Positions 1 to 15,619 of a stretch of 15,619 nt of DNA are shown here, piece after piece. Source of the stretch: Candidatus Latescibacterota bacterium (GTDB lineage Bacteria; Latescibacterota; UBA2968; UBA8231). Location of the stretch: assembly GCA_965205655.1 (NCBI GenBank), contig CBDBIJ010000074.1, forward strand, positions 1 through 15,619, given 5' to 3'. The notes under the pieces were generated by a model. That model did not search any database. It was not told where the DNA came from and saw only the letters and a list, made by a program, of their open reading frames with translations. Made by a program: the position numbers and the translations under genes. Every line of letters begins with the position of its first letter. Position 1 is the stretch's first letter.

Positions 1-1204
1 GCCGTGCTGAACGTCAGATCCCGATTCCATTGCTCGTTGCCGCCTGGATCGGTCGTCAAGCTGTCCCCGTCCGGGGTGACGGCCCCAATGAGGTAGCGGT
101 AGGTGGTGGCAGGCGTCAGATCCGACAGGGTGATACTGTGGGTTCTGAGAATGTCAGCCGAAGTGAGTGAGATCGGGTAGGCATCAGAGGACGGCACCTC
201 GCCGTAGTCGATTGTCGCCAGCGCGATCTGATTGAACCGCACGTCGATCGTCGCTCTCTCGGCGCTGAGGATACGGGCTGGAGGTGTCAGAAGTCGCAGC
301 GGCTCCCGCTGTCGCCGAGTCCGAAAGCTCCCGGTCTTGACCACACTCGCGTCGTCCTCCGTCAGCATGCCAGCTGCGATGAGACCGTCGGCACCCACGA
401 GCCGGGAGGTGACGACGAACTCGTACTCCGTATCCGGTTCAAGCCCGCAGCAGAGGCGATGTGAAAGAGAGACCCCTGTCCCTCATCGAGTCGCGCTTCC
501 TCTATGTCGGGCTCCAGTCCGATTTCGTTGACCAACAAACGGGTGTCGCAGGCGCGGTTCGTGAACCAGTTCGCCACGGCCGTCGACGGCGTCGTCTGAA
601 TGTCGAGGTCGGTTCCCGTCACCTGCCGCAAGTCGGGCGCTGCCCTGGTGCGGAAGAATCCGGCGTGGAGCTCGCTGCGATTGTCCTGCAAGCTGACGGA
701 AAGAGCTTCGTATTCGTATTGAGTATCTGAGAGAAGCCCTGCCGTCGTGATCCGGTGCCGGCGAGACCGCAGAATGCGGTCGAACGCCTGAAGTGCCTCG
801 AGGAATCCCTCTTCGTACGGCGGGTCAATACCGCCAGCTGATAAGGCCGCTCTGAACGGATCGGTATCCCCGTCACCAACATCCACACCAGCGTCGATGA
901 GGAGGAGGGTGGCGTCGAGAATCAGTGAGGTCGTGCCCTGCAGGTCGGGGTTGACGGCAACCTGCCATTCTGGCGCGTCCGTCACCCGGTAGCGCAGGGT
1001 GTCATTGACTCCGGGGAAACGGCTTTCCCAGCTGATCGTGGCGGCGTCGTGCTGACGCACGACGTCGAAGTTGAAGATCCGGTTTGCCGCTGTGGCGTCC
1101 GTCGCCAGGCCGATTGTGAGCGAAACCACGAGCCGCCGCAACGCAGCGAGATTGACATGAGTCGTTTTCCCCCTCCAGATGGCCGAGCGCACCGTTTTCG
1201 TCAT
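1..1204 (-). CDS. Secreted multi-fibronectin type III (FN3) domain protein; 3' end beyond window start; one-base frameshift at ~444-446
   Basis: ORF 362..1231 has a signal-peptide-like stretch (LRRLVVSLTIGLATDATA) and FN3-like motifs (ATISWES, HRITTAGLLSDTQYEY...FFRT). Adding one G to the G run at 444-446 (- strand) gives AGLEPDTEYEFVV...GSFRT and a third unit HSITLSDLTPATTYRY...LTFST, open to position 1. The track's GTG start at 1231 lies inside the IS30 end; ATG at 1204 is the first host-encoded in-frame start. Confidence 0.75.
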
Positions 1205-1230
1205 CGTAGCATCAACTTTGAAGTGCAACA
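1205..1230. repeat. IS30 right inverted repeat
   Basis: cgtagcatcaactttgaagtgcaaca lies just downstream of the reconstructed transposase stop (TAA 1233-1235, - strand) and aligns with the reverse complement of 3792-3817. Confidence 0.75.
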
Positions 1231-1232
1231 CC

Positions 1233-1256
1233 TTAAGGATTGTAGCACTCCTCTGG
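1233..1256 (-). other. Detached native 3' tail of the IS30 transposase (PEECYNP*)
   Basis: Joining 2818 to 1262 on the - strand reads aaa cga ctc gga tat cta acc cca gag gag tgc tac aat cct taa = KRLGYLTPEECYNP*, the usual IS30 C-terminal PRKxLGxxTPxE motif. Confidence 0.9.
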
Positions 1257-1262
1257 GGTTAG

Positions 1263-2813
1263 CCTTGATTCGGCAAAAATCAGGCGACTTTTCGTAGAGC
1301 TGCGCTGATTTTTCGGAACTGTTTTTCGGCCTTCTTGTTGCGTTGCAGACGCAAAGTGGCTCGTCCTTCCGGGTGCATCAAGTGTCCGGCGCGGTTGAAC
1401 AGCTCGAAACGTAGCGTGCGCACGGATTTCAGGGCCCAGCGGGCGGTATTCTTCCTGGTTCGGTGGCGCTTTATTAGCCCGGATTCGATCTGGAAATTGG
1501 CTAGGAGATTGTGCGCCAGCACGACAAATTGTTGCCAGACGCTGTTGGCCCGGTAGTCATCCGTGGGAATGGCGTCGAAGGCCAGCCCCGTCTTGAGTTC
1601 GCCGATGGCTTTTTCGTGTAGGCCGCGACCACCCATGAAGCGCCAGAGCGATTTTGCATCGAAAGGTAGGTTGGTGGCCAGCGCGGAGTATTCCCAGGTG
1701 CCGTTATCCGGCTCGAACAGGTCCAACTGGTAATTCTTGCGCGTGGGATGCATCACCCGCTTGCGAAAGATGACCACGTTAAGGGTGCGTTTCCACTTGC
1801 CGACCTTGACCGAAGAAAAGAAGCCGTCGATGCCGTCTTCGACGCGCTGCCAACGACGACGTTGGCGGATCTGGGTTTGCAGGTCCAGGCAGCGCCAGAA
1901 CGGCACCTTGATAGCATACTGGGCGCGATGAGCATCCAGCGTCGCCATCACATCCTCTCTGAAAAAGGCGCCGTCCATGCGAAATCGCAGCCGGTATGAG
2001 CGCCCCAGGGTCTGTTCGATTTGCTCGAACACCGCCTGTAGAAATGGGATGGAGGAAGCGCCATCGTTGACGTTGCCCGGACGGTTGTGGAGCCGGAGAA
2101 AATGACCGCTGTCGGCCAGGTAAGCGGTGATGGGATAGTAACTGGGGACCTTGCGATGATGCGGGTTGTACCCACGGCAGGCACCGCCGACCTTGTGGCC
2201 GGTGCACAGCACCGTGCCATCGATGTCGATGCTCAGTGTGCGGGCCTTCAACAGACCGATCACCCCGGCGACGACATCGGCGTTGAGCGTTTTCAACGCC
2301 TCTTCGGCGCCCACCGTGAAGCGTTTGAGCCAGCGGCTGACACTGCCGTCGGTGGGCAGGTCTTTCAGACCGCAAAACCGCTGCAGCAAAGGATCTCCTT
2401 GCAAGAAGCCCAGATGTCGCAGTCGACGGCCACCCACCACCAGCAGACCGAGGAGCACCCGACACAGACCTACCATGCCGAAATCACTGCCCGGAACGAC
2501 GGCAGACAGGTGCCGACGCAATTGACGGTTCCATCCGATGCCGCGCAAATACCGGATCAACAGCTCCAAACCGGCATACGAAGTGAGGCCTTCGGCGGTG
2601 AATTCGACGGCCAAATTGTGGTTGACGCGCGTCCTCAAATCCGCTTTCTTTCGTCTCACGGTACGTGGCCTTTCGTTTTTGGTGAAAAGGGAGTATCGCC
2701 ACTTCCGAATAACCGGAACGAAAGGCCTTTTTGCTATGGGAGATTCTCAAATTCACCGCCGAATGGCGCGCACTGAACAGCCAAAATTTCACCGAGTTAA
2801 TGCCGAATCAAGG
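1263..2813 (-). mobile_element. IS1380-family insertion sequence, 1551 bp, apparently complete
   Basis: Perfect 13-bp TIRs ccttgattcggca (1263-1275) and tgccgaatcaagg (2801-2813). 4-bp direct repeat TTAG at 1259-1262 and 2814-2817. Single 459-aa transposase. Confidence 0.93.
1280..2659 (-). CDS. IS1380-family DDE transposase
   Basis: Motifs LTSYAGL, IDIDGT, YNPHH...YYP, LRFRMDGAF and RGLHEKAIGELK...N match IS1380-type transposases; 459 aa, uninterrupted. Confidence 0.92.
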   Translation of the reverse strand: MRRKKADLRTRVNHNLAVEFTAEGLTSYAGLELLIRYLRGIGWNRQLRRHLSAVVPGSDFGMVGLCRVLLGLLVVGGRRLRHLGFLQGDPLLQRFCGLKDLPTDGSVSRWLKRFTVGAEEALKTLNADVVAGVIGLLKARTLSIDIDGTVLCTGHKVGGACRGYNPHHRKVPSYYPITAYLADSGHFLRLHNRPGNVNDGASSIPFLQAVFEQIEQTLGRSYRLRFRMDGAFFREDVMATLDAHRAQYAIKVPFWRCLDLQTQIRQRRRWQRVEDGIDGFFSSVKVGKWKRTLNVVIFRKRVMHPTRKNYQLDLFEPDNGTWEYSALATNLPFDAKSLWRFMGGRGLHEKAIGELKTGLAFDAIPTDDYRANSVWQQFVVLAHNLLANFQIESGLIKRHRTRKNTARWALKSVRTLRFELFNRAGHLMHPEGRATLRLQRNKKAEKQFRKISAALRKVA

Positions 2814-3735
2814 TTAGATATCCGAGTCGTTTTCGTGGTCTTCGGTTGAGTTTTCGTGCGATGGCGTTGCAGTCGTACTGGGTGAGGTCGGCCATGCTTT
2901 TTTTCTTGGACAAGTACTGTCGAATGAGGCCATTGGTGTTCTCGTTGGTGCCTCGTTCCCAGGCGTGATGGGGATTGGCGAAGTAGAAGCGGGTATCGGT
3001 GACGCGCTCGATGTCGGCGTAGCTGTGGAATTCGGTTCCGTTGTCTGCGGTGATGGTGTGTACGGGTCGGGGTTGGCGGTGGATGAGCTGGAGAGTCCGT
3101 CGGCTGAGCTCGTCGGCCGTTCGCGCGTTGAGCTTTCCGATCTCGACGTACCCGGTCTTTCGTTCCACGAGGGTGACGACGCACGGCCTGCCGTCGCCGA
3201 GCATTGTGTCGGCCTCCCAGTGTCCGACGCGGGAGCGGTTGTCGGCCGCGGCGGGTCGGTCCTCGATCGGCCTCTTTCCGGCCAGTCGTCCTCGAGAGTC
3301 GTAGGTGCCGTGTCGCTTACGTCGTAGTTTGGTGGCGCCGCGCAGGTGCTGGTAGAGGGAGCCACCGCGTCGTTTGTCAGCCCAGACGTGACGATAAATG
3401 GTCTCGTGGCTGATCTCGAGGATTCGGTAGCGACGGAGCCATCCAGCGATCTGCTCGGGGCTCCAGTCGTTCTTGAGCAGTTCCTGGACGAGATCCCAGT
3501 CAGCGGTGGAGAGGCGGAAGTTCCGCCGCGAGTGCGACCGCCTGGTGCGCGCGTAGCCGTGCGCCTGCAAAGGCCGGTAGAATCCATCCGCTCGCCCGCG
3601 GTTGCGTTGGACCTCTCGATAGATCGAACTTGGATGCCGTCCAAGGGTCCGTGCGATCTCAGCCACGGTTACCTCTTTTCGTCTCAGTGCCCAAATGATG
3701 TATCGTTCTTCACAGGTGATCTGGTGATACGCCAA
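2797..3735 (-). CDS. IS30-family transposase; last 7 native residues replaced by LIRH encoded by the IS1380 end
   Basis: N-terminal HTH (IARTLGRHPSSIYREVQRN), WSPEQIAG, ISHETIY, DDE triad in GHWEADT / TITADNGTEF / WERGTNENTNGLIR, and LNRRPRKRLG. TTG start preceded by GGAGG. Confidence 0.93.
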   Translation of the reverse strand: MAYHQITCEERYIIWALRRKEVTVAEIARTLGRHPSSIYREVQRNRGRADGFYRPLQAHGYARTRRSHSRRNFRLSTADWDLVQELLKNDWSPEQIAGWLRRYRILEISHETIYRHVWADKRRGGSLYQHLRGATKLRRKRHGTYDSRGRLAGKRPIEDRPAAADNRSRVGHWEADTMLGDGRPCVVTLVERKTGYVEIGKLNARTADELSRRTLQLIHRQPRPVHTITADNGTEFHSYADIERVTDTRFYFANPHHAWERGTNENTNGLIRQYLSKKKSMADLTQYDCNAIARKLNRRPRKRLGYLTLIRH

Positions 3736-3791
3736 CGTAGCCTCCCTTCCTTTAGCCGGGTTAGGAGACTACAGTATCCCAGATCGCCTCT

Positions 3792-3817
3792 TATCGCACT
3801 TAGTATGTGAATTCGCG
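3792..3817. repeat. IS30 left inverted repeat
   Basis: Reverse complement cgcgaattcacatactaagtgcgata aligns with 1205-1230 and is followed by the AT duplication. Confidence 0.7.
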
Positions 3818-3886
3818 ATCATTAATATCGTCAGCGACGACGAGGACTCCGCGGACGACGAAACGTCCCGCGGCCTGAGGCGGAAA

Positions 3887-5462
3887 GTGAACGCGGAGAA
3901 AGAGGAAAGTCGGAGTCACGCTGCACCCGGTCCCGCGGCGTCTACAGAGGAAGGGGAGCTTTCCGTCGATAGAATCGCTGAGCTTCTCGGGCGCGTGGGC
4001 GAGGAAGGTCCACCCGATGTCGCCTGGGAGCTCAGCGTCCACGTCAACAGCCTGTCGGAAGCCGTCAGGGATCTGACCGTGCGAGTGGGCGCTCTGGAAG
4101 AGGAGAATCGCACCCTTCAGGACCGGCTCGCCAGCGGTCACAAGGAATACGCGCAGCTCAGAGAATCGATGGACGAGCTGCTCAATTTGCACGAGCTCTC
4201 GGAAGCAATCAGCACGAGCTTCAAAATCGCTGACATTCTCGAAGCTCTCATGGATCTGTCAGGTCGCGTCATCGGACTACGAGAGCTGCGGCGTCTTCGC
4301 CCTGGCAGAGGAGGGGAAGGGTCTGACTTCCATGGCGGTGCGGGGAGCGGGCTCTCGAGGGTCACCGGATACCGACGGGGCCGACAATAATCTTTCCTTT
4401 GACGTCCGCGTTCAGGCTCAGTGGGATGACGGAATAATCGACTGGGTGCTCAAGGAGGGGCGGCCGGTGGTGATAGACGACATGGAGTCGGTGCGAGCGG
4501 CGGCTCAAAAAAGTGGGCGCAGCTTCGTCATCATTCCCCTGATGGTCGGCGGCAAGGAGATCGGCGTGTTCACCCTATACTGCCGCAAGGCGAAAGACGA
4601 TTTCACGCTCGGCGAAATCGAGCTGCTCGGTGTGCTCGCCAACCAGACAGCGGCGGCCATCGAGAACTCTCGGCTCTACACCGATCTCGAGATTTCTCAC
4701 CAGCGACTCAAGGAGTCCCAGCGACAGCTGCTCATGTCCGCCAAGCAGGCCGCCATCGGCGAGCTGGCGGGGGGCGTCGCCCACGAGGTGAACAACCCGC
4801 TGCAGATCATCTTGAGCAGAGTGCAGCTGATGATCGCCCAGAGCAACACGGAAGAGAAGGTGACGGACGGGCTGCGTCTCATCGAGACGAACGTCCGACG
4901 CATCTCCAAGATCATCAGAGCCCTCCTCGGTTTCGCCAGTCACAATACCGCAAACGCCGAATGGATGGCGCTCGACATGCAGCAGGCCATCCTGCAAGCC
5001 TCCGAGCTCGTGAAGCACCAGCTCGACGCCCAGCTCATCGAGGTCGAGATCGACGTGCCCGATGATCTGCCCCCCATGCTGGGAAACATCGGCGAGCTGG
5101 AGCAGGTGTTCATCAACCTGATGCTCAACGCGCAAAACGCCATGCCCGATGGCGGCAGGCTGCAGATCAGCGCCCGCCGGGATGGCGGTCAGGTGGAAAT
5201 CCGCTTCAGAGACTCCGGAGAGGGGATTCGCGCCGAACATCTGGATCGCATCTTCGAACCTTTCTTCACCACCCGCGTCGGAGAGGGCGGTACGGGCCTC
5301 GGACTGGCGGTCAGCTACCGCATCGTAGATGCCCACGAAGGCACCATAACCGTGGACAGCGCGTCCGGCGAGGGCTCCACATTCATTGTCAGGATGCCGA
5401 TTCGCAAGGGCGAAGCTGTCACCGACAGCTCTGCAGACACCACACAATCCTTCGCCACATGA
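3887..5462 (+). CDS. Cytoplasmic GAF-domain sensor histidine kinase (coiled coil-GAF-HisKA-HATPase), ~524 aa, split by a +1 frameshift at ~4274
   Basis: Removing one G from atcGGactac (4274-4275) joins ORFs 3887..4390 and 4332..5462 as ...RVIDYESCGVFAL.... GAF motifs IIPLMVGGKEIGVF and LANQTAAAIENSRLY; H box AHEVNNPL; N box EQVFINLMLNA; G1 DSGEGI; F box IFEPFFTT; G2 GTGLGL. Confidence 0.9.
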
Positions 5463-6097
5463 TGCTTCCCTCGCCCCAGACAGTTCAACTCATTTTCATA
5501 GACGTTCTTTTCATCTGTCTTGCCGCCGGCATCTTTTTCTGGTTTCGCTCCTGGCTCAAGGGAGAGAGACGTCAGATCGACCGCAGACTCGACGCTCTCG
5601 AATCACATCGGGAAAGCCTCGAGCGGTTGGGAACCAGGCTGTTGTCGGCCAGCCGCAGCCTGGAAGGGATTCTCTCGGAGCGGCGATCGCCGGACGAGCG
5701 TCTCGGCGACGCTGTGTCTCCCCCTCAGCGCGGGCGGGTGACGACATCTGCACCGGCGGCTGATTGGGCGCAGAGGCTCTCGGAACTGCGCCGCGCAGCC
5801 GAAGCGACCGCGGGGGATGCCGCCTCGCGGGGCGGGACGGCATCGCCATCGCGCGCTCGGGACAGCGGCCCTCGCAGCAGGGTGTCTGGGGCAGAAGTCG
5901 ATCGACACTCGCGCAATCGCGCTGCAGATTCGCGCGGGTCGGAGACGGTGGCGCGTGGAAAGGAGCAGTACGGCTGGGCCCGGCAGCTTCTCGAGCAGGG
6001 CATGTCCGCCAGCGAGGTCGCCAGGAGAGTGGGGCTGGGTCTGGCCGAAGTCGAGGTCCTCAAACGAATGAACGACTACAGCGACGCTAACCCCTGA
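5459..6097 (+). CDS. Membrane-anchored hypothetical protein: N-terminal TM, coiled coil, low-complexity linker, C-terminal HTH-like tail (DUF6115/DUF2802-like)
   Basis: TM LIFIDVLFICLAAGIFFWF; heptad stretch IDRRLDALESHRESLERL; tail ARQLLEQGMSASEVARRVGLGLAEVEVL; ATGA overlap with the kinase stop. Confidence 0.7.
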   Translation: MMLPSPQTVQLIFIDVLFICLAAGIFFWFRSWLKGERRQIDRRLDALESHRESLERLGTRLLSASRSLEGILSERRSPDERLGDAVSPPQRGRVTTSAPAADWAQRLSELRRAAEATAGDAASRGGTASPSRARDSGPRSRVSGAEVDRHSRNRAADSRGSETVARGKEQYGWARQLLEQGMSASEVARRVGLGLAEVEVLKRMNDYSDANP

Positions 6098-7254: not shown

Positions 7255-7524
7255 ATGAACGTAGCGCTGACGAGCAGGGAGATCGAGCTCATCCTCGCGT
7301 GGAAGGGGAAGCCGTTCTGGCCCGATGAGGAGCGAGTGCTGGGGAAGCTGCGACGTGCACTTGAAAGCGAGGGGGGTGAGTTGGGGCTCAGCCGTCTTCA
7401 GATCGGAATAATCAACGGCTGGATCGAGGAGCAGGTCGCGAGCCACCGCGGCGGAGGAGATGCGATGAACCCGGAGGAGTCTCTGATTCTCGGCAAACTG
7501 CGGGCGGCTCTGGAGGGCGACTAG
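7255..7524 (+). CDS. Small hypothetical protein (89 aa) made of two similar halves
   Basis: ATG at 7255 after AGGA; fills the gap between hisC and rel; internal repeat PDEERVLGKLRRALE / PEESLILGKLRAALE; stop overlaps the rel stop (CTAG 7521-7524). Confidence 0.75.
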   Translation: MNVALTSREIELILAWKGKPFWPDEERVLGKLRRALESEGGELGLSRLQIGIINGWIEEQVASHRGGGDAMNPEESLILGKLRAALEGD

Positions 7525-9726
7525 TCCGGCAGATCCGGCTCGTCAACTCTGTGCACGTGAGTGACGCCGTCCAGCTGGGATATCTTTTTCATCAGGCTCT
7601 GCAGCTGCCGGGTATTCTTCACATCGATCCAGAACGTGTCATCGACCACATGCTGTCTGGTCTGGGCGGAGGTGCGCTGGATGTTGGCGTCCGTGTCGGA
7701 GATGGCCCGAGCGATATCGGAGAGCAGGTACTTCCGGTCGTTCCCCGTGACGAGCAGCTGAACCGTGAAGGCCTGCTCTTCCTCCACGTCCCATTCTACC
7801 ACAACGAGCCGGTCGGGATGCTCGGCGATGTCGGCCGCGTTGGGACAGTCGGCGCGGTGCACGGAGATTCCCCGCCCACGGGTGACGAGACCGATGATGG
7901 AGTCACCGGGAATCGGCGTGCAACACTTCCCGAAATGAATCATCATGTCGTCCACACCCTGGATACGGATTCCGCGCCGGTCCCGCAGCCTTGGGAAGCG
8001 AATGCGACGCTTTGGCCGCTCCGGTAGAAGGCGATTGACGACGCCGCTGACTGTCAGATCTCCGCTACCGATGCCGGCGTAGAGATGCTCGGCATCGGCG
8101 ACGCCGAGGTCCTCAGCGAGCTCGTCTAGGGCATCGCTTTCGACCCGGTGGCGGTACTTCCTCAACTCGTGCTCGAGGATTTCCTGGCCCAGGCGCACGC
8201 TGTGAGCGAACTGCTCCTCCTTCAACCAGCGACGGATCGCCTGCTTCGCCTTGGCGGTTTTCACCATCTCCAACCAGGCCACGCTTGGATTCTGATGCGG
8301 CGAGGTGATGATCTGCACCGTGTCGCCGCTGTTCAAGGCCGCGCCCAGAGGCACGATCTGACCGTTCACCTTGGCGGTGAGACAATGCAGGCCGATGTCG
8401 GTGTGGATGGCGAAGGCGAAATCGATGGGCGTGGCCCCATTGGGCAGCTGATGGAGGTCCCCCTTGGGAGTGAATGCGAAGATCTCGTCCTGAAACAACT
8501 CGATCTTCAGGCTTTCCATGAATTCCACCGGATCGGTGGCATCCCGCTGCCAGTCCAGCACCTGACGCAGCCAGTTCATCCGGTGATCCAGATCGCCCCC
8601 TTCAGTGCCGATGCCGGATTTGTAGCGCCAGTGCGCGGCAATGCCGAATTCGGCCGGTGTAGTGCATCTCGTCAGTGCGGATCTGCACTTCGACGGGGAT
8701 ACCCCTGGGGCCGATGACGGTCGTGTGAAGGGACTGGTACATGTTTGTCTTTGGGGTGGCGATATAATCCTTGAATCGGTCCGGGATCGGATGGTAGATG
8801 GTGTGCACCAGACCGAGAGTGTGATAGCACTCGCGGATCGTGCCCAGGGTGATGCGAACCGCCTGCAGGTCGAAGATCTCCTCGAACGGTTTGCCTTCCG
8901 CCTTCATCTTGTTGTAGATGCTGTAGAAATTCTTCGGCCTGCCGGTGATCTCCGCCTCGATACCCCCCTTGTACAACTCGGTCTCGATCGGACTTTTGAA
9001 CTCGTCGATGTAGACTTCGCGATCTTCCCGCTTCAGCACCACCTTGTCGCGAATATCGGCATACATCTCGGGGTCGATGTACTTGAGCGACTGATCCTCA
9101 AGCTCCCAGCGGATTCGCGCCAGGCCAAGGCGGTTGGCGAGTGGCGCGTAGACTTCCACGGTCTCGAGCGCGATACGCTTCTGCTGCTCGGCGTCGACGT
9201 GGCCGAGGGTCCGCATGTTGTGAAGGCGGTCCGCAAACTTGATGAGGATAGCGCGGATATCCTCCACCATGGACAGCAGCATTTTGCGGTAGGTTTCCGC
9301 CTGCCTCGCCTCCCGGCTCTCGTAGCGGAAGCGCTCGATCTTGGTGACGCCATCGGTGAGGGCGGCGATCTTCGGCCCGAACTCCTCGGCGACGCGCTCG
9401 ATCGTGACGGGCGTATCCTCGACAACATCGTGGAGGAGGCCGGCTGCGACGGTGGTCGAGTCGAGGCGCAGCTGGGCAAGGATTCGAGCCACTTCGACGC
9501 AGTGTTGCATGAATGGACGGCCGGAGCGGCGAGTCTGGCCGTCATGCTGGGCGTTGGCAAAGTGGTATGCCCGAGCGATGAGACTGAAGTCAGCCTGCTC
9601 GTTCGACGACGCAACTTCGATGAGAAGCATTTGCAGCTGCAGATGGCCGCTCGACTGTTCGAGCAGTTCGTCCAGGCTCAGCGGTGGCGATGTGGTGGAG
9701 GAACGACTTTGGGGATGCACGGTCAT
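7521..9726 (-). CDS. rel: Bifunctional (p)ppGpp synthetase/hydrolase (long RelA/SpoT homologue), ~734 aa, split by a +1 frameshift at ~8654
   Basis: HD hydrolase motifs LLHDVVED and KFADRLHNMRTL; synthetase GRPK, RFKDYIA (RxKD type), YQSLHT, EVQIRT. Removing one base at 8654-8655 restores AEFGIAAHWRYK and joins to TGS (FTPKGD...DFAFAIHTDIG), CCTPIPGD/VHRADC and ACT domains. Start at ATG 9726 chosen because it gives a typical length. Confidence 0.95.
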
Positions 9727-9745
9727 CGCTGTAGACCTACAATTG

Positions 9746-9769
9746 CGCTGGGAGCGCGCGCTCCCAGCG
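9746..9769. repeat. Perfect 24-bp palindrome upstream of rel
   Basis: cgctgggagcgcgcgctcccagcg is its own reverse complement. Confidence 0.9.
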
Positions 9770-9923
9770 GTGGTGGGTGCTTTGCGAGCGGTGGGCGCCT
9801 GTGGAGTCAGCGACGACGCGTCTGCCTCGAATATACTCAAAGGGTGCGTACCGAGAAAACCGTTGACCGGCTAGCTCAGCACCACAGATGAAAGCGGCAG
9901 AAGGGGTTACGGCAGAAGAGAGC

Positions 9924-10381: not shown

Positions 10382-10410
10382 ATTGTAGTCAACATGAGAT
10401 CCCATGTCAA
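10382..10410 (-). promoter_or_regulatory. Sigma70-type promoter TTGACA-N17-TACAAT
   Basis: The - strand reads ttgaca tgggatctcatgttgac tacaat: perfect -35, 5/6 -10, 17-nt spacer, about 85 nt upstream of the ATG at 10296. Confidence 0.8.
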
Positions 10411-10442
10411 GCCATAAGCACGCGGCTGGACGACAGCAGAGA

Positions 10443-10829
10443 ATGCCCGTCTCGATGCCCACGCGGGGGGATATCATTCTCGTGATAGCGGTCGCGCTCG
10501 GCGCGGTCGCCTGGACTGTGGGGGCAGCGCGGCGAGCGGTGGAGACCGTCCCGCAACGCGCCGTTGTGGAGCTGAATGGCGTCGTGCAGGGAGCTTACTC
10601 ACTGGATGAACCCCAGCTGCACCACGCAAGGGGCCCCCTCGGGGTAACGATCATCGAGGTCGTCGACGGAGGTGCGCGGGTCGTCAGCTCGCCGTGCCTC
10701 AACAAGATCTGCATGCAAACGGGTGTAATTCGACTCCCCGGCGATGTCGCGGTCTGCGTGCCGAACGGGATTCTACTTCGACTCGAAGGAGGCGTGCCGG
10801 ATTCACGCTTCGACGGAGTCACTCGCTAG
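10443..10829 (+). CDS. NusG domain II-containing (Lin0431-like) membrane-anchored protein
   Basis: N-terminal GDIILV plus TM, then GPLGVTIIEVVDGGARVVSSPCLNKICMQTG.I...GDVAVCVPN with the family's three Cys. Start at 10443 or 10455. Confidence 0.85.
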   Translation: MPVSMPTRGDIILVIAVALGAVAWTVGAARRAVETVPQRAVVELNGVVQGAYSLDEPQLHHARGPLGVTIIEVVDGGARVVSSPCLNKICMQTGVIRLPGDVAVCVPNGILLRLEGGVPDSRFDGVTR

Positions 10830-10878
10830 TGCCCCGACGCCGCGTGCCGGCCGATCCCGACTACGGGGAGGTAGGAGG

Positions 10879-11397
10879 ATGTCGCCGGTGATCGCAACGC
10901 GTACCCTGGCCCGACTCGGTATGATCACGAGTGCGGCGCTGATTCTGTTTACGCTGGAGTCGCTGGCGCCGCGTCCGCTTCCGTGGATGAAGCTGGGCCT
11001 GGGGAATGCGGCCGTACTCCTCGCCTTGGTAACTCTGGGCCCTTTCCACGCGATCGCCGTGAGCGCGGTGAAGATCCTCGCTGGATCCCTCATGACGGGC
11101 AGCCTGGGAAGCCCCGCCTTCGTCATCGGCGGTGGCGCCAGCCTTTCGAGTGTGTCCTGCATGGCGCTGCTGCACCGAACAGTGCCGGGGGTGTTCAGCG
11201 CTGTGGGACTGAGCGTGGCAGGAGCGGTCGTTCACCAGCTCGCACAGCTGGTCATCGCATACCTCTACATAGGTCACGCTGGACTATTCTCCTTCGTGCC
11301 GCTGTTCCTGGTAAGCGGTCTGATCAGCGGCGCTCTCATCGGGCTGGTCGTGTTTTGGTGCGTGAGGCAGCTGGCCAGACTGGGATGGAGCGAATAG
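10879..11397 (+). CDS. Gx transporter family membrane protein (annotated as heptaprenyl diphosphate synthase component I family)
   Basis: LESLAPRPLPWMKLGLGN, FSAVGLSVAGAVVHQLAQL, about 5-6 TM segments; strong SD (GGAGG/AGGAGG) before ATG 10879 or GTG 10888; usual partner of NusG-II genes. Confidence 0.88.
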   Translation: MSPVIATRTLARLGMITSAALILFTLESLAPRPLPWMKLGLGNAAVLLALVTLGPFHAIAVSAVKILAGSLMTGSLGSPAFVIGGGASLSSVSCMALLHRTVPGVFSAVGLSVAGAVVHQLAQLVIAYLYIGHAGLFSFVPLFLVSGLISGALIGLVVFWCVRQLARLGWSE

Positions 11398-11515: not shown

Positions 11516-14500
11516 ATGACATGGGCCCTAACACATCGACTCGTAGCCACCTACACGAAATCGATCCCGCTGCTGGCGGTCGCGGCACAGCCCTGGTTGT
11601 CTACGCCCGCCGCAGCCACCGTGGACTACCCCGCCCTCCAGAAGCTGGCGACCGAGAGCGAGCTGCGCGACCGCATCGCTCGCTTTACCGATCTCGGTTC
11701 GCGCGTCGTCGGATACTCCGGTGCCGACGAGTCGGCTCTCTACATCCAGCGCATCTATACCGAGATCGGTCTCGACGATGTAACCGTCCACACCTACGAC
11801 GTCTCCATCCCGGTGGACAAAGGAGGGCATCTGCGCCTCGAAGGGTGGGATGAAACCGTGGACCTTCACGGGCTATGGCCGAACCTGGTGCGGACGTCGA
11901 CGCTGCCTGACGGAGGCATCGACGCGCGCCTGATCTACGCCGGCCGCGGCGAGCTGAGCGAGATGAACGGCCAGGACGTGGAGGGCGCCGTAGCTGTCAT
12001 GGAGTTCAACTCGGGCGACAACTGGCTGAATGCCGCCTATCTGGGAGCAGTTGGGATCGTCTTCATCGAGCCGGACTCGACCGTCTACCTCGAAGGAGAG
12101 CGGAAGTTCCTCACTATGCCCCTCGATGTGCCCCGGTTCTGGATCGGCAAGCGCGAGGGCGAGGAGTTCAGACGCCGGTTGACGGCAGCCGACGTGCGCG
12201 AACTCGGTCTCCAGGCGCATTTGGAGTACCGCATGGACTGGGAGCGCCGCCCCGCGTGGAACATTATGGGCAGCATTCCCGGCTACGATCCCCTGCTCAG
12301 GGACGACGTCATCGTAATCGAGGCGTACTACGACGCCATGTCAGTAGTTCCGGGCATCGCCCCCGGCGCCGAGCAGGCGGCGGGCATCACAGCGCTCCTG
12401 GAACTGGCGCAATACTTCCGCGATTACCCGCCGCCGCGAACGGTCGTCTTTCTGGCCACATCGGCACACCACCTCGGCTTGCGGGGCATCGACGACTTCA
12501 TCCAGCGCTACCTGAGGAAAGAGGACCCGTTTGTCGACCGCATGCTCATCCGCCGCGTTGTGGAAGCGTCGTTGTCGCGTGGGCTGATCCCACAAAGGGG
12601 CGTCTACTACGATCTCGGTGAGCGGACCTTTTTCGGCAAGGAGACGCTCGTTCAGGAGGTGGCGACGGCGGATTCGATCCTCGTCCGCTCGGTCCTCAAC
12701 ACGGCTCTGGCGACCGGAGAAGTTGTCGATCGCTCAGCCGGCGGACTCAGTTTCGACGGCAGGTCCTTCGCCAACGAGGCGGAACTTTCCGCGCTGTTGA
12801 TAGAGGACGAAGATCTGCGGCTCGACTTCTACCGCGAATGGGTAGAGCCCCAGGTCGACACGATGGCAGTCAAACTGTTCATCAGTCTCGATCTTTCGAC
12901 CCAGACCGATGAGCTCGGGGTGTGGAACAGCAATGCGAGCTTCTACTATAAGCGCTATTTCGCCCCTTTCGGAAAGAATTTCATGAGGTACGCGCGAGAG
13001 CTGAGCCGCGAGCTTGGTTACAACCCCCGCGACGTGCTCGTCAACGGCATCAGCCCGGAGGGCGGCAAGAGCTGGGAGACCTACGTGCCCGGTGAAATAT
13101 CCGTCAACAGCGAGCTCGTGCTCGACACCGGGACGCCGGCGCTGGCTTTCGTAACCGTGAACGACGCCCGCTTCCTCGTGGACACTCCCTTGGACCGCGT
13201 CGAGCAGGTCAACTACGGGAATCTACAGCGTCAGATCCGCGCCCTGGCGGCCATGTTCCACATGGCGCTCGACGACCCCGAGCTCTTCCCGGACTTCAAA
13301 ATGCGCCTGAAGGATACCGTGCGGACCATGCGGGGCAGGACGATGGTATTCCCGCGTCGCAGCATCGTGCCGGACATGCCGAGGAAGAAGGGGGTGGCCG
13401 TCGTCCGCAACGGCAAGCAGAAATCCTACAAGGGGGTACGCGGCGAGTATTTCGAGGCGGTCGATGAACGAGGCGCCTTCTACATCAACCGCATCCGCGT
13501 CGAGCAGGTCCAGATCGAAGGCTACTACATGGATCCGGCGACCGGCGAGGTCACCTATGCGCCTGACAGGGGAATCCAGGGTGACGGGTCCTACAAGATG
13601 AAGGGCAAGATGGATTGGCGCGACAAGACATGGATGGTCATCCTCTTCCCGTGCGAATCCTTCAACTTTTTCGACATCGTCGATCCGCGGTATCTGACCA
13701 AACTCTCCGAGGTGAAGGTCTTCGACGATACCAACACGGCCCCGGTGGAGTTCGGATACACGATCGGCGAGGGGCCGTCGGCAAAAGACGAGCCGGTAGG
13801 CGTGCTGTTCGCGCGACCCGGATCGGTCATCAAAGTCGGCTTCGGGGCAAACATCCTGGGGTTCCGCTCGCTGCTGCTCAACGCGACGGTGGCCGACGAC
13901 AAGGAGCGGGCCCTGGGCGACGGATTCGTCATCGGTCCGGAAACGTCCTTCGGGAAGACGTCCTACCTGGCCGCCAGAGACATGTGGATGCTCGACGAAG
14001 GTCGCATGCGCGAGCTTCGCAGCTTCGCCATCGAGAGCGCGAGGCTGACCGATCTGCACGACAAAGCGAAGGTCGAACTCGACAGGGCCGAGGTTGCCCT
14101 CGGCGCCCGCAAGTGGGACGATTTCGTGCGTCACACTCGGGCCGCTATGGGCCTTGAATCCCGGGCCTACCCGGATGTGAAGTCGACTCAGAACGACGTC
14201 ATACAGGGCATCATTTTCTTTATGGCGCTGGTCATTCCCTGTGCCTACTTCGCCGAAAGGCTGCTGATCACGGCGGCGACGATCAAGAACCAGATCTTCG
14301 GCTTTGCCGGCATCTTCATCGTCATCTGGATCATCCTTTCTATGGTCCACCCCGCTTTCGAGCTGTCCAATCCCTTCGTAATCCTGCTCGCCTTCGTCAT
14401 CCTGACGCTCGCCGTGCTCGTCAGCTGGATCATCGCCGGACGCTTCAACGAACAGATGAAGAAGCTCAGGACGGAAGTGGCCGTCATTCACGATACCGAC

Positions 14501-15619
14501 GTGTCCCGCTCCAGCGCCTCTTTCACGGCGTTTCTGCTGGGCATCTCGAACATGAAGCGCCGCAAACTGCGCACGGCGCTCACGTTCATCACACTTCTGT
14601 TGCTCACCTTTACCGTGCTCTCCTTCACATCGATTCAGACGTCGCTGCGGTTCACCCAGATCGAGCGGGACAACGAGGGGCTCTACGAGGGGATTCTGAT
14701 TCGCAGCAAGGCCTGGACCCCGATGGAGGCATCCGTCCTCGAGTACGCCGAGAGTAATTTCGGCGATATCGCCACGGTGGCCCCGCGTTGCTGGTACGAC
14801 AACAAAAAGAAGGTCTTCATCAAGATGATGTACGGCGACGGCGCCCACGACGCACTCGGGGTGCTGGGGCTGACCCCGCAGGAGACGGAGGTGAGCGGGC
14901 TCGACCGCGCTCTCGTCGCCGGGAGGTGGTTCGAGCCGGGCGAGAGAAACGTCTGCATCCTCCCCAACGACATGATCGGCGAGGACAAACTGGAGCTCGA
15001 GGCCGCCGACATAGGAACGGCTCAGATCCGCGTTTTCGGCGACTACTACACCGTCATCGGTGTGGTGGACTCCAAGCGCATGAAGCAGCTCAAGGATCTG
15101 GACGACGAGATGATGACGCCAGCGGACTTCGCAGTCACCGGCGGCGCCGCGATCCAGGAACTGGCCAAGGAGGAGGAGCGGGAGAAACAGGGGCTCGAGG
15201 ACACCAAGGTGGTCATCAAGCCCTTCGTCCACATCGAGCCAGCCAACACGCTCATCATCCCGTACAACACACTGAGGACCGTCGGCAGCGGCAATCCGCT
15301 GCAATCGGTGGCGGTCCGCCTCGAGGAGGGAGTGGACGTTCGCGCCGAGATCGAGCGCTTTTTGTCGCGGCTGGCCGTGACCCTGTTCGCCGGCATCCGC
15401 GAGCCGGGGACGGACTACATCGGCGTCTCCGTCTACAGCTCCCTCGGAATGACCTCGCTCACCGGCATGGCGAACCTGTTCATCCCCATCCTGATCGCGG
15501 CCCTGATCGTGCTGAACACGATGATGGGGAGCGTGTACGAGCGCTTTCGCGAGATCGGCGTCTACTCGTCGGTGGGTCTGGCACCAGGTCACATCGCCTG
15601 GCTCTTCATCGCCGAATCG
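11516..15619 (+). CDS. Giant fusion protein: PA/M28-peptidase-like ectodomain, beta-rich domain, extra TMs and MacB/FtsX-family ABC permease; >1368 aa, truncated by the window end; absent from the ORF track
   Basis: Manual translation from ATG 11516 (alternative 11480) found no stop up to 15619. M28-like motifs: SRVVGYSG, LIYAGRG (PA), NIMGSIPG, EAYYDAM, GAEQAAGITALLELA, FISLDLS, VDTPLD. Three TMs at ~14200-14440. Permease motifs SNMKRRKLRTALT, GRWF, YTVIGVV, NTMMGSVYERFREIGVYSSVG. Confidence 0.92.
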   Translation, partial: MTWALTHRLVATYTKSIPLLAVAAQPWLSTPAAATVDYPALQKLATESELRDRIARFTDLGSRVVGYSGADESALYIQRIYTEIGLDDVTVHTYDVSIPVDKGGHLRLEGWDETVDLHGLWPNLVRTSTLPDGGIDARLIYAGRGELSEMNGQDVEGAVAVMEFNSGDNWLNAAYLGAVGIVFIEPDSTVYLEGERKFLTMPLDVPRFWIGKREGEEFRRRLTAADVRELGLQAHLEYRMDWERRPAWNIMGSIPGYDPLLRDDVIVIEAYYDAMSVVPGIAPGAEQAAGITALLELAQYFRDYPPPRTVVFLATSAHHLGLRGIDDFIQRYLRKEDPFVDRMLIRRVVEASLSRGLIPQRGVYYDLGERTFFGKETLVQEVATADSILVRSVLNTALATGEVVDRSAGGLSFDGRSFANEAELSALLIEDEDLRLDFYREWVEPQVDTMAVKLFISLDLSTQTDELGVWNSNASFYYKRYFAPFGKNFMRYARELSRELGYNPRDVLVNGISPEGGKSWETYVPGEISVNSELVLDTGTPALAFVTVNDARFLVDTPLDRVEQVNYGNLQRQIRALAAMFHMALDDPELFPDFKMRLKDTVRTMRGRTMVFPRRSIVPDMPRKKGVAVVRNGKQKSYKGVRGEYFEAVDERGAFYINRIRVEQVQIEGYYMDPATGEVTYAPDRGIQGDGSYKMKGKMDWRDKTWMVILFPCESFNFFDIVDPRYLTKLSEVKVFDDTNTAPVEFGYTIGEGPSAKDEPVGVLFARPGSVIKVGFGANILGFRSLLLNATVADDKERALGDGFVIGPETSFGKTSYLAARDMWMLDEGRMRELRSFAIESARLTDLHDKAKVELDRAEVALGARKWDDFVRHTRAAMGLESRAYPDVKSTQNDVIQGIIFFMALVIPCAYFAERLLITAATIKNQIFGFAGIFIVIWIILSMVHPAFELSNPFVILLAFVILTLAVLVSWIIAGRFNEQMKKLRTEVAVIHDTDVSRSSASFTAFLLGISNMKRRKLRTALTFITLLLLTFTVLSFTSIQTSLRFTQIERDNEGLYEGILIRSKAWTPMEASVLEYAESNFGDIATVAPRCWYDNKKKVFIKMMYGDGAHDALGVLGLTPQETEVSGLDRALVAGRWFEPGERNVCILPNDMIGEDKLELEAADIGTAQIRVFGDYYTVIGVVDSKRMKQLKDLDDEMMTPADFAVTGGAAIQELAKEEEREKQGLEDTKVVIKPFVHIEPANTLIIPYNTLRTVGSGNPLQSVAVRLEEGVDVRAEIERFLSRLAVTLFAGIREPGTDYIGVSVYSSLGMTSLTGMANLFIPILIAALIVLNTMMGSVYERFREIGVYSSVGLAPGHIAWLFIAES

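What the first reader, a model, noticed from the sequence alone, without database searches (positions are those of the whole stretch)
11516..15619. Hidden giant M28-like ectodomain fused to a MacB/FtsX ABC permease: candidate uncharacterised export or processing machine
Seen: one open frame of at least 1368 codons with a signal-like N-terminus, ~890 aa of predicted extracytoplasmic sequence (M28-like with PA domain, beta-rich region, helical linker), three extra TMs, then MacB-type TM1, a periplasmic domain and the FtsX SVxERxREIG motif. Known: MacB/FtsX/LolCE permeases mechanically drive extracytoplasmic partners, which are normally separate proteins (for example EnvC for FtsEX). Inference: here the partner is covalently attached, suggesting an ATP-driven capture or handling module for a peptide or surface substrate. 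The ATPase and accessory genes should lie downstream, outside the window.
Basis: partly seen in the sequence, partly recalled or inferred. Interest (0 to 1): 0.8.

Follow-up and report, generated by a model that had tools for sequence, protein, structure and literature searches.

The report
Shared ATP motor, many peptidase-like heads
This is a real, about 1,600-residue membrane protein of uncultured Latescibacterota in which a peptidase-shaped outer head lacking the usual zinc site is fused to one half of a MacB-type membrane motor, and its likely partner half and ATPase lie elsewhere in the genome, probably shared by several such proteins in an undescribed machine that most likely captures peptides for a neighbouring transporter.

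Summary
Observation confirmed. The frame is real, runs off the contig and continues on contig C76 (full length 1,597 aa). Order: PA-plus-M28 fold, beta region, helical stalk, three extra TM helices, a complete MacB module, then a helix-grip-like cytoplasmic domain. The M28 site is rewired: none of 124 family members keeps the catalytic Glu pair or the last His.

Downstream lie two OPT-like genes, an unknown gene and a PqqD-like gene, but no ATPase (ATPase near the giant in 3 of 80 related loci). The likely missing parts are on contig C114: a 231-aa FtsX half without periplasmic domain and a LolD-type ATPase. The small half is single-copy in 138 of 151 phylum genomes, while giants number up to six. 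It shares one operon with the giant in four genomes and is absent with it from one family.

Best reading: an asymmetric type VII ABC motor shared by several receptor-plus-OPT modules. Binding and substrate are untested. My paper searches found no study. This scan found the family and full operon before on other DNA.

The parts
11516..15619 (+). Giant PA/M28-like-MacB/FtsX fusion gene, first 1,368 of about 1,597 codons; open at the contig end, C-terminal 146 aa on G000 contig C76:1-441
11516..11617 (+). N-terminal leader, weak signal-peptide-like, ending PAAA; start uncertain by a 1-base difference at 11526
   Evidence: sequence; weak hydropathy; indel in 3 of 4 runs; signal function is inference
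11618..13276 (+). M28 aminopeptidase fold with PA insertion (about 11807-12241)
   Evidence: Pfam M28; model pLDDT 94.6; Foldseek 6hc6 E 7e-22; VIA-align 1rtq Z 29.0, rmsd 2.5, 265 aligned
12326..13183 (+). Rewired active-site positions: Tyr (12326), Glu (12371), His (12467), His/variable (12470), Asp (12890), Asp (13181) in place of the His, Asp, Glu, Glu, Asp, His of active M28 enzymes
   Evidence: alignments to 6hc6, 2ek8, 2anp; column counts in 124 sequences; coordinates
12530..12847 (+). About 105-residue insertion in the M28 domain, restricted to this orthologue group; modelled as helices with two beta-hairpins
   Evidence: present in 12 of 124 aligned sequences; model; no internal sequence repeat found
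13313..13936 (+). Beta-rich periplasmic region, fold not assigned (weak CarboxypepD_reg hit in 2 of 17 relatives, best E 0.0016)
13952..14197 (+). Three-helix stalk leading to the membrane
   Evidence: model
14198..14434 (+). Three extra TM helices with conserved ERL and HPAF motifs, absent from MacB
14507..14635 (+). MacB-type elbow helix and TM1
14636..15451 (+). MacB-type periplasmic domain
   Evidence: Pfam MacB_PCD; VIA-align 3ftj Z 14.7, rmsd 3.1, 179 aligned
15458..15619 (+). TM2 and conserved coupling-helix region (ERxREIG...GLAP...LF.AE); TM3, TM4 and the cytoplasmic C-terminal domain lie beyond the window
   Evidence: Pfam FtsX; conservation; model

Best explanation
The gene encodes the large half of what is likely an asymmetric type VII (MacB/LolCDE-like) ABC motor, whose small half (a 231-aa FtsX protein with no periplasmic domain) and LolD-type ATPase are encoded elsewhere and are probably shared by several paralogous large halves, the whole most likely capturing peptides for uptake through the neighbouring OPT-like protein. 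Shown: the domain layout, the loss of the canonical zinc site, the gene linkage and the copy numbers. Inferred steps: (1) large half and small half pair in the inner membrane and bind two ATPases through their coupling helices; (2) the PA/M28-like head binds a peptide or peptide-like substrate in a rewired pocket without ordinary hydrolysis, as a receptor; (3) ATP binding and hydrolysis move the periplasmic part, as in MacB mechanotransmission, and release or hand the substrate to the OPT-like/DUF6785 protein encoded next door, which carries it across; (4) the PqqD-like and 300-350-aa soluble proteins act on the cytoplasmic side as adaptors. Different paralogous giant-plus-OPT pairs would give different specificities on one motor. 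I put the three-subunit motor at about 0.8, the sharing among paralogues at about 0.65, and the uptake direction and peptide substrate at about 0.4.
For: Giant, OPT-like, unknown, PqqD-like, small FtsX and ATPase form one same-strand run in 4 of the 17 giant-bearing genomes examined outside this class (L148-L151). In 80 metagenome loci fetched by the small FtsX alone: ATPase 68, PqqD-like 34, unknown gene 22, OPT-like 16, giant 14 (10 of the 28 loci of 9 kb or more), in several gene orders and at GC 0.29-0.71. Small FtsX: exactly one strong match in each of 138 of 151 genomes; giants: at least 3-6 in several closed genomes. Among 34 genomes tested, 23 have the giant; of these 23 have the OPT-like gene, 22 the ATPase and 21 the small FtsX; the other 11 have none of the four. 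The own C114 ATPase groups (96/97) with the full-operon ATPases. Coupling-helix residues stay over 90% conserved in 124 giants. BceB is a precedent for two MacB halves of which one lost its periplasmic domain (PMC5985334, passages). OPT kinship: Atlas clusters with PF03169 in 33% and 15% of members, 432 aligned columns to a true OPT at E 0.0067. One giant is fused to DUF6785 (P0127).
Against: The 11 genomes lacking all four genes are one family, so one loss event, not 11. In this class the small FtsX was found near the giant in 0 of 80 loci, so pairing here rests on other lineages. OPT membership is below the Pfam cut-off (25.3 bits against 25.8; 0 of 17 members at E 0.1; no solved-structure match). 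The pocket keeps Glu/Asp, His, Asp, Asp under strong conservation, which fits a remodelled enzyme as well as a receptor. Type VII systems described in the papers read act in efflux, extraction or activation, not uptake. PqqD-like and unknown genes are missing from many giant loci (38 and 39 of 80). No substrate clue was found among the neighbours.
Confidence: 0.45

Rival explanations
1. Same motor, but the head is a remodelled single-metal enzyme (ligase, transamidase or slow peptidase) that modifies an envelope protein, lipopeptide or lipid-linked substrate presented by the motor, in the manner of GPAA1 or YbbAP-TesA.
For: Acidic residue at the bridging-ligand position in 106 of 124, His at the catalytic-base position in 121, Asp in 111 and 102 at two further ligand positions. 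A Glu151-to-His mutant of the Aeromonas aminopeptidase is titled functional (PDB 2anp; reference title only). GPAA1 is proposed to use one metal with three ligands (PMC4111754, passages). TesA receives substrate from YbbAP (PMC12646458, passages).
Against: Each of the two canonical metal sites has lost a ligand; 0 of 124 keep Glu at either position of the Glu pair or the last His. No shared substrate or glycosylation gene accompanies the module across lineages. It does not explain the OPT-like partner.
Confidence: 0.25
2. A sensing or membrane-protein handling complex: the head is a scaffold like nicalin or nicastrin, and the motor remodels or signals to the OPT-like partner rather than feeding it cargo, as BceAB does with BceS.
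For: The family profile matches nicalin (E 3e-11, the longest M28-type stretch) and nicastrin (E 7e-4). BceB has the same one-periplasmic-domain asymmetry and binds a membrane partner. The giant ends in a helix-grip/KA1-like cytoplasmic domain (Z 8-9).
Against: Active aminopeptidases score higher by profile and by structure. No kinase or regulator recurs among the neighbours. Paralogue expansion fits substrate variety better.
Confidence: 0.13
3. An export and maturation line for a ribosomally made peptide: the PqqD-like protein binds a precursor, the OPT-like protein or motor exports it and the head processes it.
For: PqqD domain above cut-off (E 1e-12); MacB-family systems export peptides.
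Against: No modifying enzyme recurs among the neighbours (the gene caller ignored frames under 60-70 aa, so small precursors were not tested). The PqqD hit is below the cut-off of all four NCBIfam chaperone models. Near-universal, single-copy presence of the motor in the phylum is unlike a biosynthetic cluster.
Confidence: 0.08
4. The giant is a MacB-like homodimer that uses a generic ATPase; the small FtsX is a separate system that merely shares operons.
For: MacB and FtsX are homodimers. A second ATPase of the same group occurs without the small FtsX (own C29; two copies in 9 of 9 closed genomes checked) and lies near a giant in 3 of 80 loci.
Against: The small FtsX has no periplasmic domain of its own (four TM segments, about 50 residues between TM1 and TM2), is linked to the giant in several gene orders and is absent with it.
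Confidence: 0.09

Closest known systems
LolCDE (heterodimeric type VII ABC)
   Same: Two different MacB-type permease halves plus a separate LolD-type ATPase; structural match to LolC/LolE; best NCBIfam match of the ATPase is LolD, below cut-off.
   Different: One half has no periplasmic domain, the other carries an 860-residue extra head, three extra TMs and a cytoplasmic domain; this genome has a separate LolD-like ATPase beside a 417-aa permease (C58); no LolA link seen.
BceAB (B. subtilis)
   Same: Two MacB halves, one without periplasmic domain; works with a membrane partner (PMC5985334, PMC12646458, passages).
   Different: BceB is one chain with a kinase partner; here two genes, an M28-like head and OPT-like partners.
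YbbAP-TesA (E. coli)
   Same: Type VII motor with a hydrolase-fold protein on its periplasmic side (PMC12646458, passages).
   Different: TesA is a separate, active esterase; here the head is fused, of M28 fold and lacks the canonical site.
PA-containing M28 aminopeptidases (BSAP/YwaD 6hc6, 2ek8, PaAP) and their non-catalytic relatives (transferrin receptor, nicalin, nicastrin)
   Same: PA plus M28 fold, Z 26-29; profile matches.
   Different: Canonical dizinc ligands replaced; fused to an ABC permease. That the last three are non-catalytic is recalled, not from a call.
Group II ECF transporters (recalled analogy, not tested)
   Same: One single-copy energising module apparently serving several substrate-specific membrane modules scattered over the genome.
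   Different: Unrelated folds; here the shared part would be a small FtsX plus ATPase and the specific part a giant permease plus OPT-like protein.

Membership tests
Type VII ABC permease (MacB/FtsX) | Four-TM module with periplasmic domain between TM1 and TM2 | tested here: met
   Pfam MacB_PCD and FtsX above cut-off; hydropathy; model matches MacB, LolC, YtrF
Type VII ABC permease (MacB/FtsX) | Coupling helix after TM2 for an ATPase | tested here: met
   E1340, R1341, E1344, I1345, G1352, F1362, E1365 conserved in 93-99% of 124 sequences
Type VII ABC permease (MacB/FtsX) | Cognate LolD/MacB/FtsE-type ATPase, fused or linked | tested here: inconclusive
   Not fused, not adjacent here; a dedicated ATPase group is operon-linked in other lineages and its orthologue is on C114; binding not measured
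Type VII ABC permease (MacB/FtsX) | Dimer of two permease modules and ATP-driven mechanotransmission | not testable with these tools
   Inferred from linkage and copy number only
MacB proper (MacAB-TolC efflux) | N-terminal fused ATPase, MacA adaptor and TolC partner | tested here: not met
   No ATPase domain in P0001; NCBIfam MacB score 35.7 against cut-off 966; no such family among the 40 commonest neighbours as read from their sequences
M28 metallopeptidase (active) | Aminopeptidase alpha/beta fold | tested here: met
   Z 29.0, rmsd 2.5 over 265 residues to 1rtq
M28 metallopeptidase (active) | Dizinc ligands His, Asp, Glu, Asp, His and catalytic Glu | tested here: not met
   Pattern Tyr, Glu, His, variable, Asp, Asp; 0 of 124 with Glu at the Glu pair or the last His; mapping by sequence alignment, model coordinates not inspected
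Nicalin/nicastrin-type pseudo-peptidases | Closer to them than to active M28 enzymes | tested here: inconclusive
   Profile E 3e-11 and 7e-4, but aminopeptidases rank higher; no tree built
OPT/YSL transporters (downstream partner) | PF03169 above cut-off or clear profile homology | tested here: inconclusive
   25.3 bits against 25.8; 0 of 17 members; E 0.0067 to a true OPT; Atlas clusters with OPT in 15-33% of members
RiPP biosynthetic cluster | Precursor peptide and modifying enzyme beside the PqqD/RRE protein | tested here: inconclusive
   No recurring modifying enzyme; frames under 60-70 aa not examined

The most novel reading that the evidence does not exclude
A new class of importer: a type VII ABC motor built from unequal halves powers OPT-fold carriers, one single-copy small-half-plus-ATPase module driving a swappable set of giant pseudo-peptidase receptors, so that MacB-type mechanotransmission is used for nutrient capture across many uncultured bacteria and probably archaea.
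Probability: 0.3. Interest if true: 0.85.

Novelty: new variant of a known kind. Interest (0 to 1): 0.64.

Why it matters
The type VII ABC systems covered by the papers read here act in efflux, lipoprotein extraction or hydrolase activation. This one is near-universal in a ubiquitous uncultured phylum (138 of 151 genomes for the small half), has over a thousand divergent relatives (1,249 clusters at E 1e-30 or better) and combines parts for which my searches found no joint description: an asymmetric motor, a rewired peptidase head, OPT-fold partners and a PqqD-like protein. Locating the small half and ATPase in trans turns an apparently orphan permease into a defined set of genes that can be co-expressed and tested. 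If one motor serves many receptors, it would be a second case of the shared-energiser design known from ECF transporters, in an unrelated fold.

Tried and rejected
Assembly artefact or two genes: rejected. ATPase downstream: not found on C76 or in 20 stretches around relatives. Active dizinc peptidase: rejected on ligands. Special kinship with nicalin/nicastrin: considered; neither appears among the listed structural matches, which does not exclude it. Link to glycosylation: glycosyltransferase-like genes (label from my reading of the sequences) precede the small FtsX in this family, but no such gene recurs in the full operons; treated as local synteny. Upstream NusG-II and Gx-type genes: confined to this orthologue group, not counted as parts. 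Tandem repeat in the M28 insertion: not supported by sequence. Fold of the beta region: no solved-structure match, not folded alone. Fold of the 347-aa protein: only unnamed Atlas clusters, no Pfam hit. Sequencing runs: no RNA holder listed. Promoter scan gave one site on the other strand. Paper searches without a description of the system: FtsX, M28, DUF6785; 0 papers; 1 unrelated; DUF6785/DUF6784: 0 papers. The library lacks most subscription journals; no supplements were read, and bioRxiv supplements are closed, so a table entry could have been missed.
Full report
Observation. The window is the whole of contig C74 of a 4.0-Mb, 84% complete genome. A stop-free frame runs from 11420/11516 to the contig end. 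Pfam finds M28, MacB_PCD and FtsX above cut-off; PA is not hit. A 1,597-aa protein, P0001, is 99.6% identical over 1,365 residues, and contig C76:1-438 of the same genome encodes its last 146 residues (145 identical). All 31 genomes searched have matches, many as unbroken frames of 1,500-1,680 aa. An independently assembled contig covers 10345-15191. The fusion is real. Named relatives are mostly Candidatus Latescibacterota, some filed as Gemmatimonadota. Residue numbers below follow P0001 (window residue minus 2).

Anatomy. The model of the ectodomain (866 residues, pLDDT 94.6) has an M28 fold with PA insertion. Best matches are PA-bearing aminopeptidases (6hc6, E 7e-22) and the Aeromonas aminopeptidase (Z 29.0, rmsd 2.5, 265 residues). 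A 105-residue insertion is found in 12 of 124 aligned sequences. A beta-rich region of unassigned fold and a three-helix stalk follow.

The peptidase site. By alignment to solved M28 enzymes, the six key positions are 269, 284, 316, 317, 457 and 554. In 124 sequences (P0001, 111 library representatives of 1,350-2,000 aa out of 150 listed, and 12 closer relatives) they read Tyr 90 (His 9), Glu 89 or Asp 17, His 121, variable, Asp 111 and Asp 102. None has Glu at 316 or 317 or His at 554. So it is not a canonical dizinc peptidase. The pocket is not decaying either: the replaced residues are conserved. A Glu-to-His mutant at the 316-equivalent position of the Aeromonas enzyme is titled functional (PDB 2anp; reference title; paper not read), and GPAA1 is proposed to use one metal (PMC4111754, passages). 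A receptor and a remodelled enzyme both remain possible.

Neighbours. On C76 the gene is followed by two OPT-like genes (799 and 801 aa, 70% identical), a 347-aa unknown and a 144-aa PqqD-like gene, then a flagellin gene on the other strand. In 80 loci from named genomes: OPT-like 51, DUF6785 54, either 74, unknown 39, PqqD-like 38, ATPase 3, small FtsX 0. These are the 80 best matches, so closely related and not independent, and some contigs are short. The OPT label rests on weak but concordant evidence and fails the Pfam cut-off. One library protein has DUF6785 fused to the giant (P0127).

The missing motor parts. Among 33 ABC ATPases called in the own genome, two related LolD/MacB-type ones had no adjacent large permease (C114, C29). 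The C114 one follows, across an insertion element, a 231-aa FtsX protein with four TM segments and no periplasmic domain. This small half has exactly one strong match in each of 138 of 151 phylum genomes (E 1.5e-32 or better; next rows 6e-20 or worse) and is directly followed by the ATPase in 29 of 30 loci. Of 34 genomes tested further, 23 carry the giant; these have the OPT-like gene in 23, the ATPase (E under 1e-70) in 22 and the small half in 21, the two misses being 84% and 89% complete. The remaining 11, all one family, lack all four; I set aside one weak match to a 331-aa frame in G058 as a generic FtsX. In 4 of the 17 giant-bearing genomes outside this class the order giant, OPT-like, unknown, PqqD-like, small FtsX, ATPase is one same-strand run (L148-L151). 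A metagenome scan with the small half alone gave 80 loci with ATPase 68, PqqD-like 34, unknown 22, OPT-like 16, giant 14 (10 of 28 loci of 9 kb or more), in several orders. In a 36-sequence tree the own C114 ATPase groups with the full-operon ATPases at 96/97; the C29 copy is a long branch of unsure place in the wider group. Giants number at least 3-6 in several closed genomes against one small half and two ATPases.

Mechanism. MacB-type permeases work as pairs of modules, and BceB is described as two modules of which one lost its periplasmic domain (PMC5985334, passages). The simplest reading is that giant and small half form such an unequal pair on two ATPases, and that in this lineage one small half serves several giants. 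The head would bind a peptide-like substrate and the ATP cycle would pass it to the OPT-like partner. Latescibacteria are predicted protein and polysaccharide degraders with oligopeptide uptake (PMC4454575, passages; FtsX is not mentioned there), which fits but does not show this.

Comparison and novelty. It works like LolCDE, BceAB and YbbAP-TesA (PMC12646458, passages) and is a type VII permease by topology and coupling helix, but it is not MacB and not an active M28 peptidase. Searches found no description; subscription journals and supplements were not covered. Earlier notes of this scan report the same family and the full operon in Armatimonadota, Planctomycetes-type and sulfate-reducing bacteria; those taxa I did not verify beyond Atlas labels. 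One note said relatives encode a dedicated ATPase, before I searched for it; I found the small half before reading. What this window adds is the split arrangement: motor genes in trans, single-copy small half, several giants, joint absence in one family.

Verdict. Real, conserved, uncharacterised; a new variant of type VII ABC systems. Interest 0.64.

Noticed in passing
window 7521-9840 (-): relA/spoT is split into two frames (HD and synthetase; TGS and ACT) by a 1-base difference near 8654 that three of four laid runs lack: assembly error or strain-specific frameshift.
   Followed up: partly
window 10404-11397 (+): NusG domain II and heptaprenyl diphosphate synthase component I (Gx-type) genes directly upstream on the same strand; seen only in this orthologue group. 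In 25 of loci L036-L082 a DUF6785 gene lies directly upstream of the giant; it is missing here.
   Followed up: partly
L003 (G000 C76) 475-5507: Two OPT-like genes 73% identical in DNA, separated by a 220-base scrap holding 23 bases identical to the start of the 347-aa gene and 93 bases 84% like the giant's TM2 region: trace of a duplication or recombination with another copy of the locus.
   Followed up: partly
L001 (G000 C121) 9577-18871: Paralogous locus giant, OPT-like, DUF6785; giant and OPT-like gene are each split by a frameshift. The genome has matches to DUF6785 on eight contigs.
   Followed up: partly
L116 (G000 C114) 3550-4691: Transposase-like frames inserted between the small FtsX gene and its ATPase, which are adjacent in 29 of 29 relatives; may affect ATPase expression in this strain.
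   Followed up: no
window 1280-2659 (-) and 2797-3735 (-): Two transposase-like frames (IS1380-like and IS30-like by recall, not scanned); they interrupt the region between a large secreted-protein-like gene and a GAF histidine kinase.
   Followed up: no
L030 12232-19915 (-), L031: A giant paralogue followed by a UPF0182 membrane protein instead of an OPT-like gene.
   Followed up: no
P0170, P0177, P0180, P0183: Family members of 2,450-3,050 aa with extra N-terminal or inserted regions of about 1,000 residues, not identified.
   Followed up: no
L151 7839-10718 (-), L003 475-2874: OPT-like partners carry a variable insertion near the C-terminus (one with a Reg_prop propeller hit), suggesting swappable periplasmic domains.
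   Followed up: no
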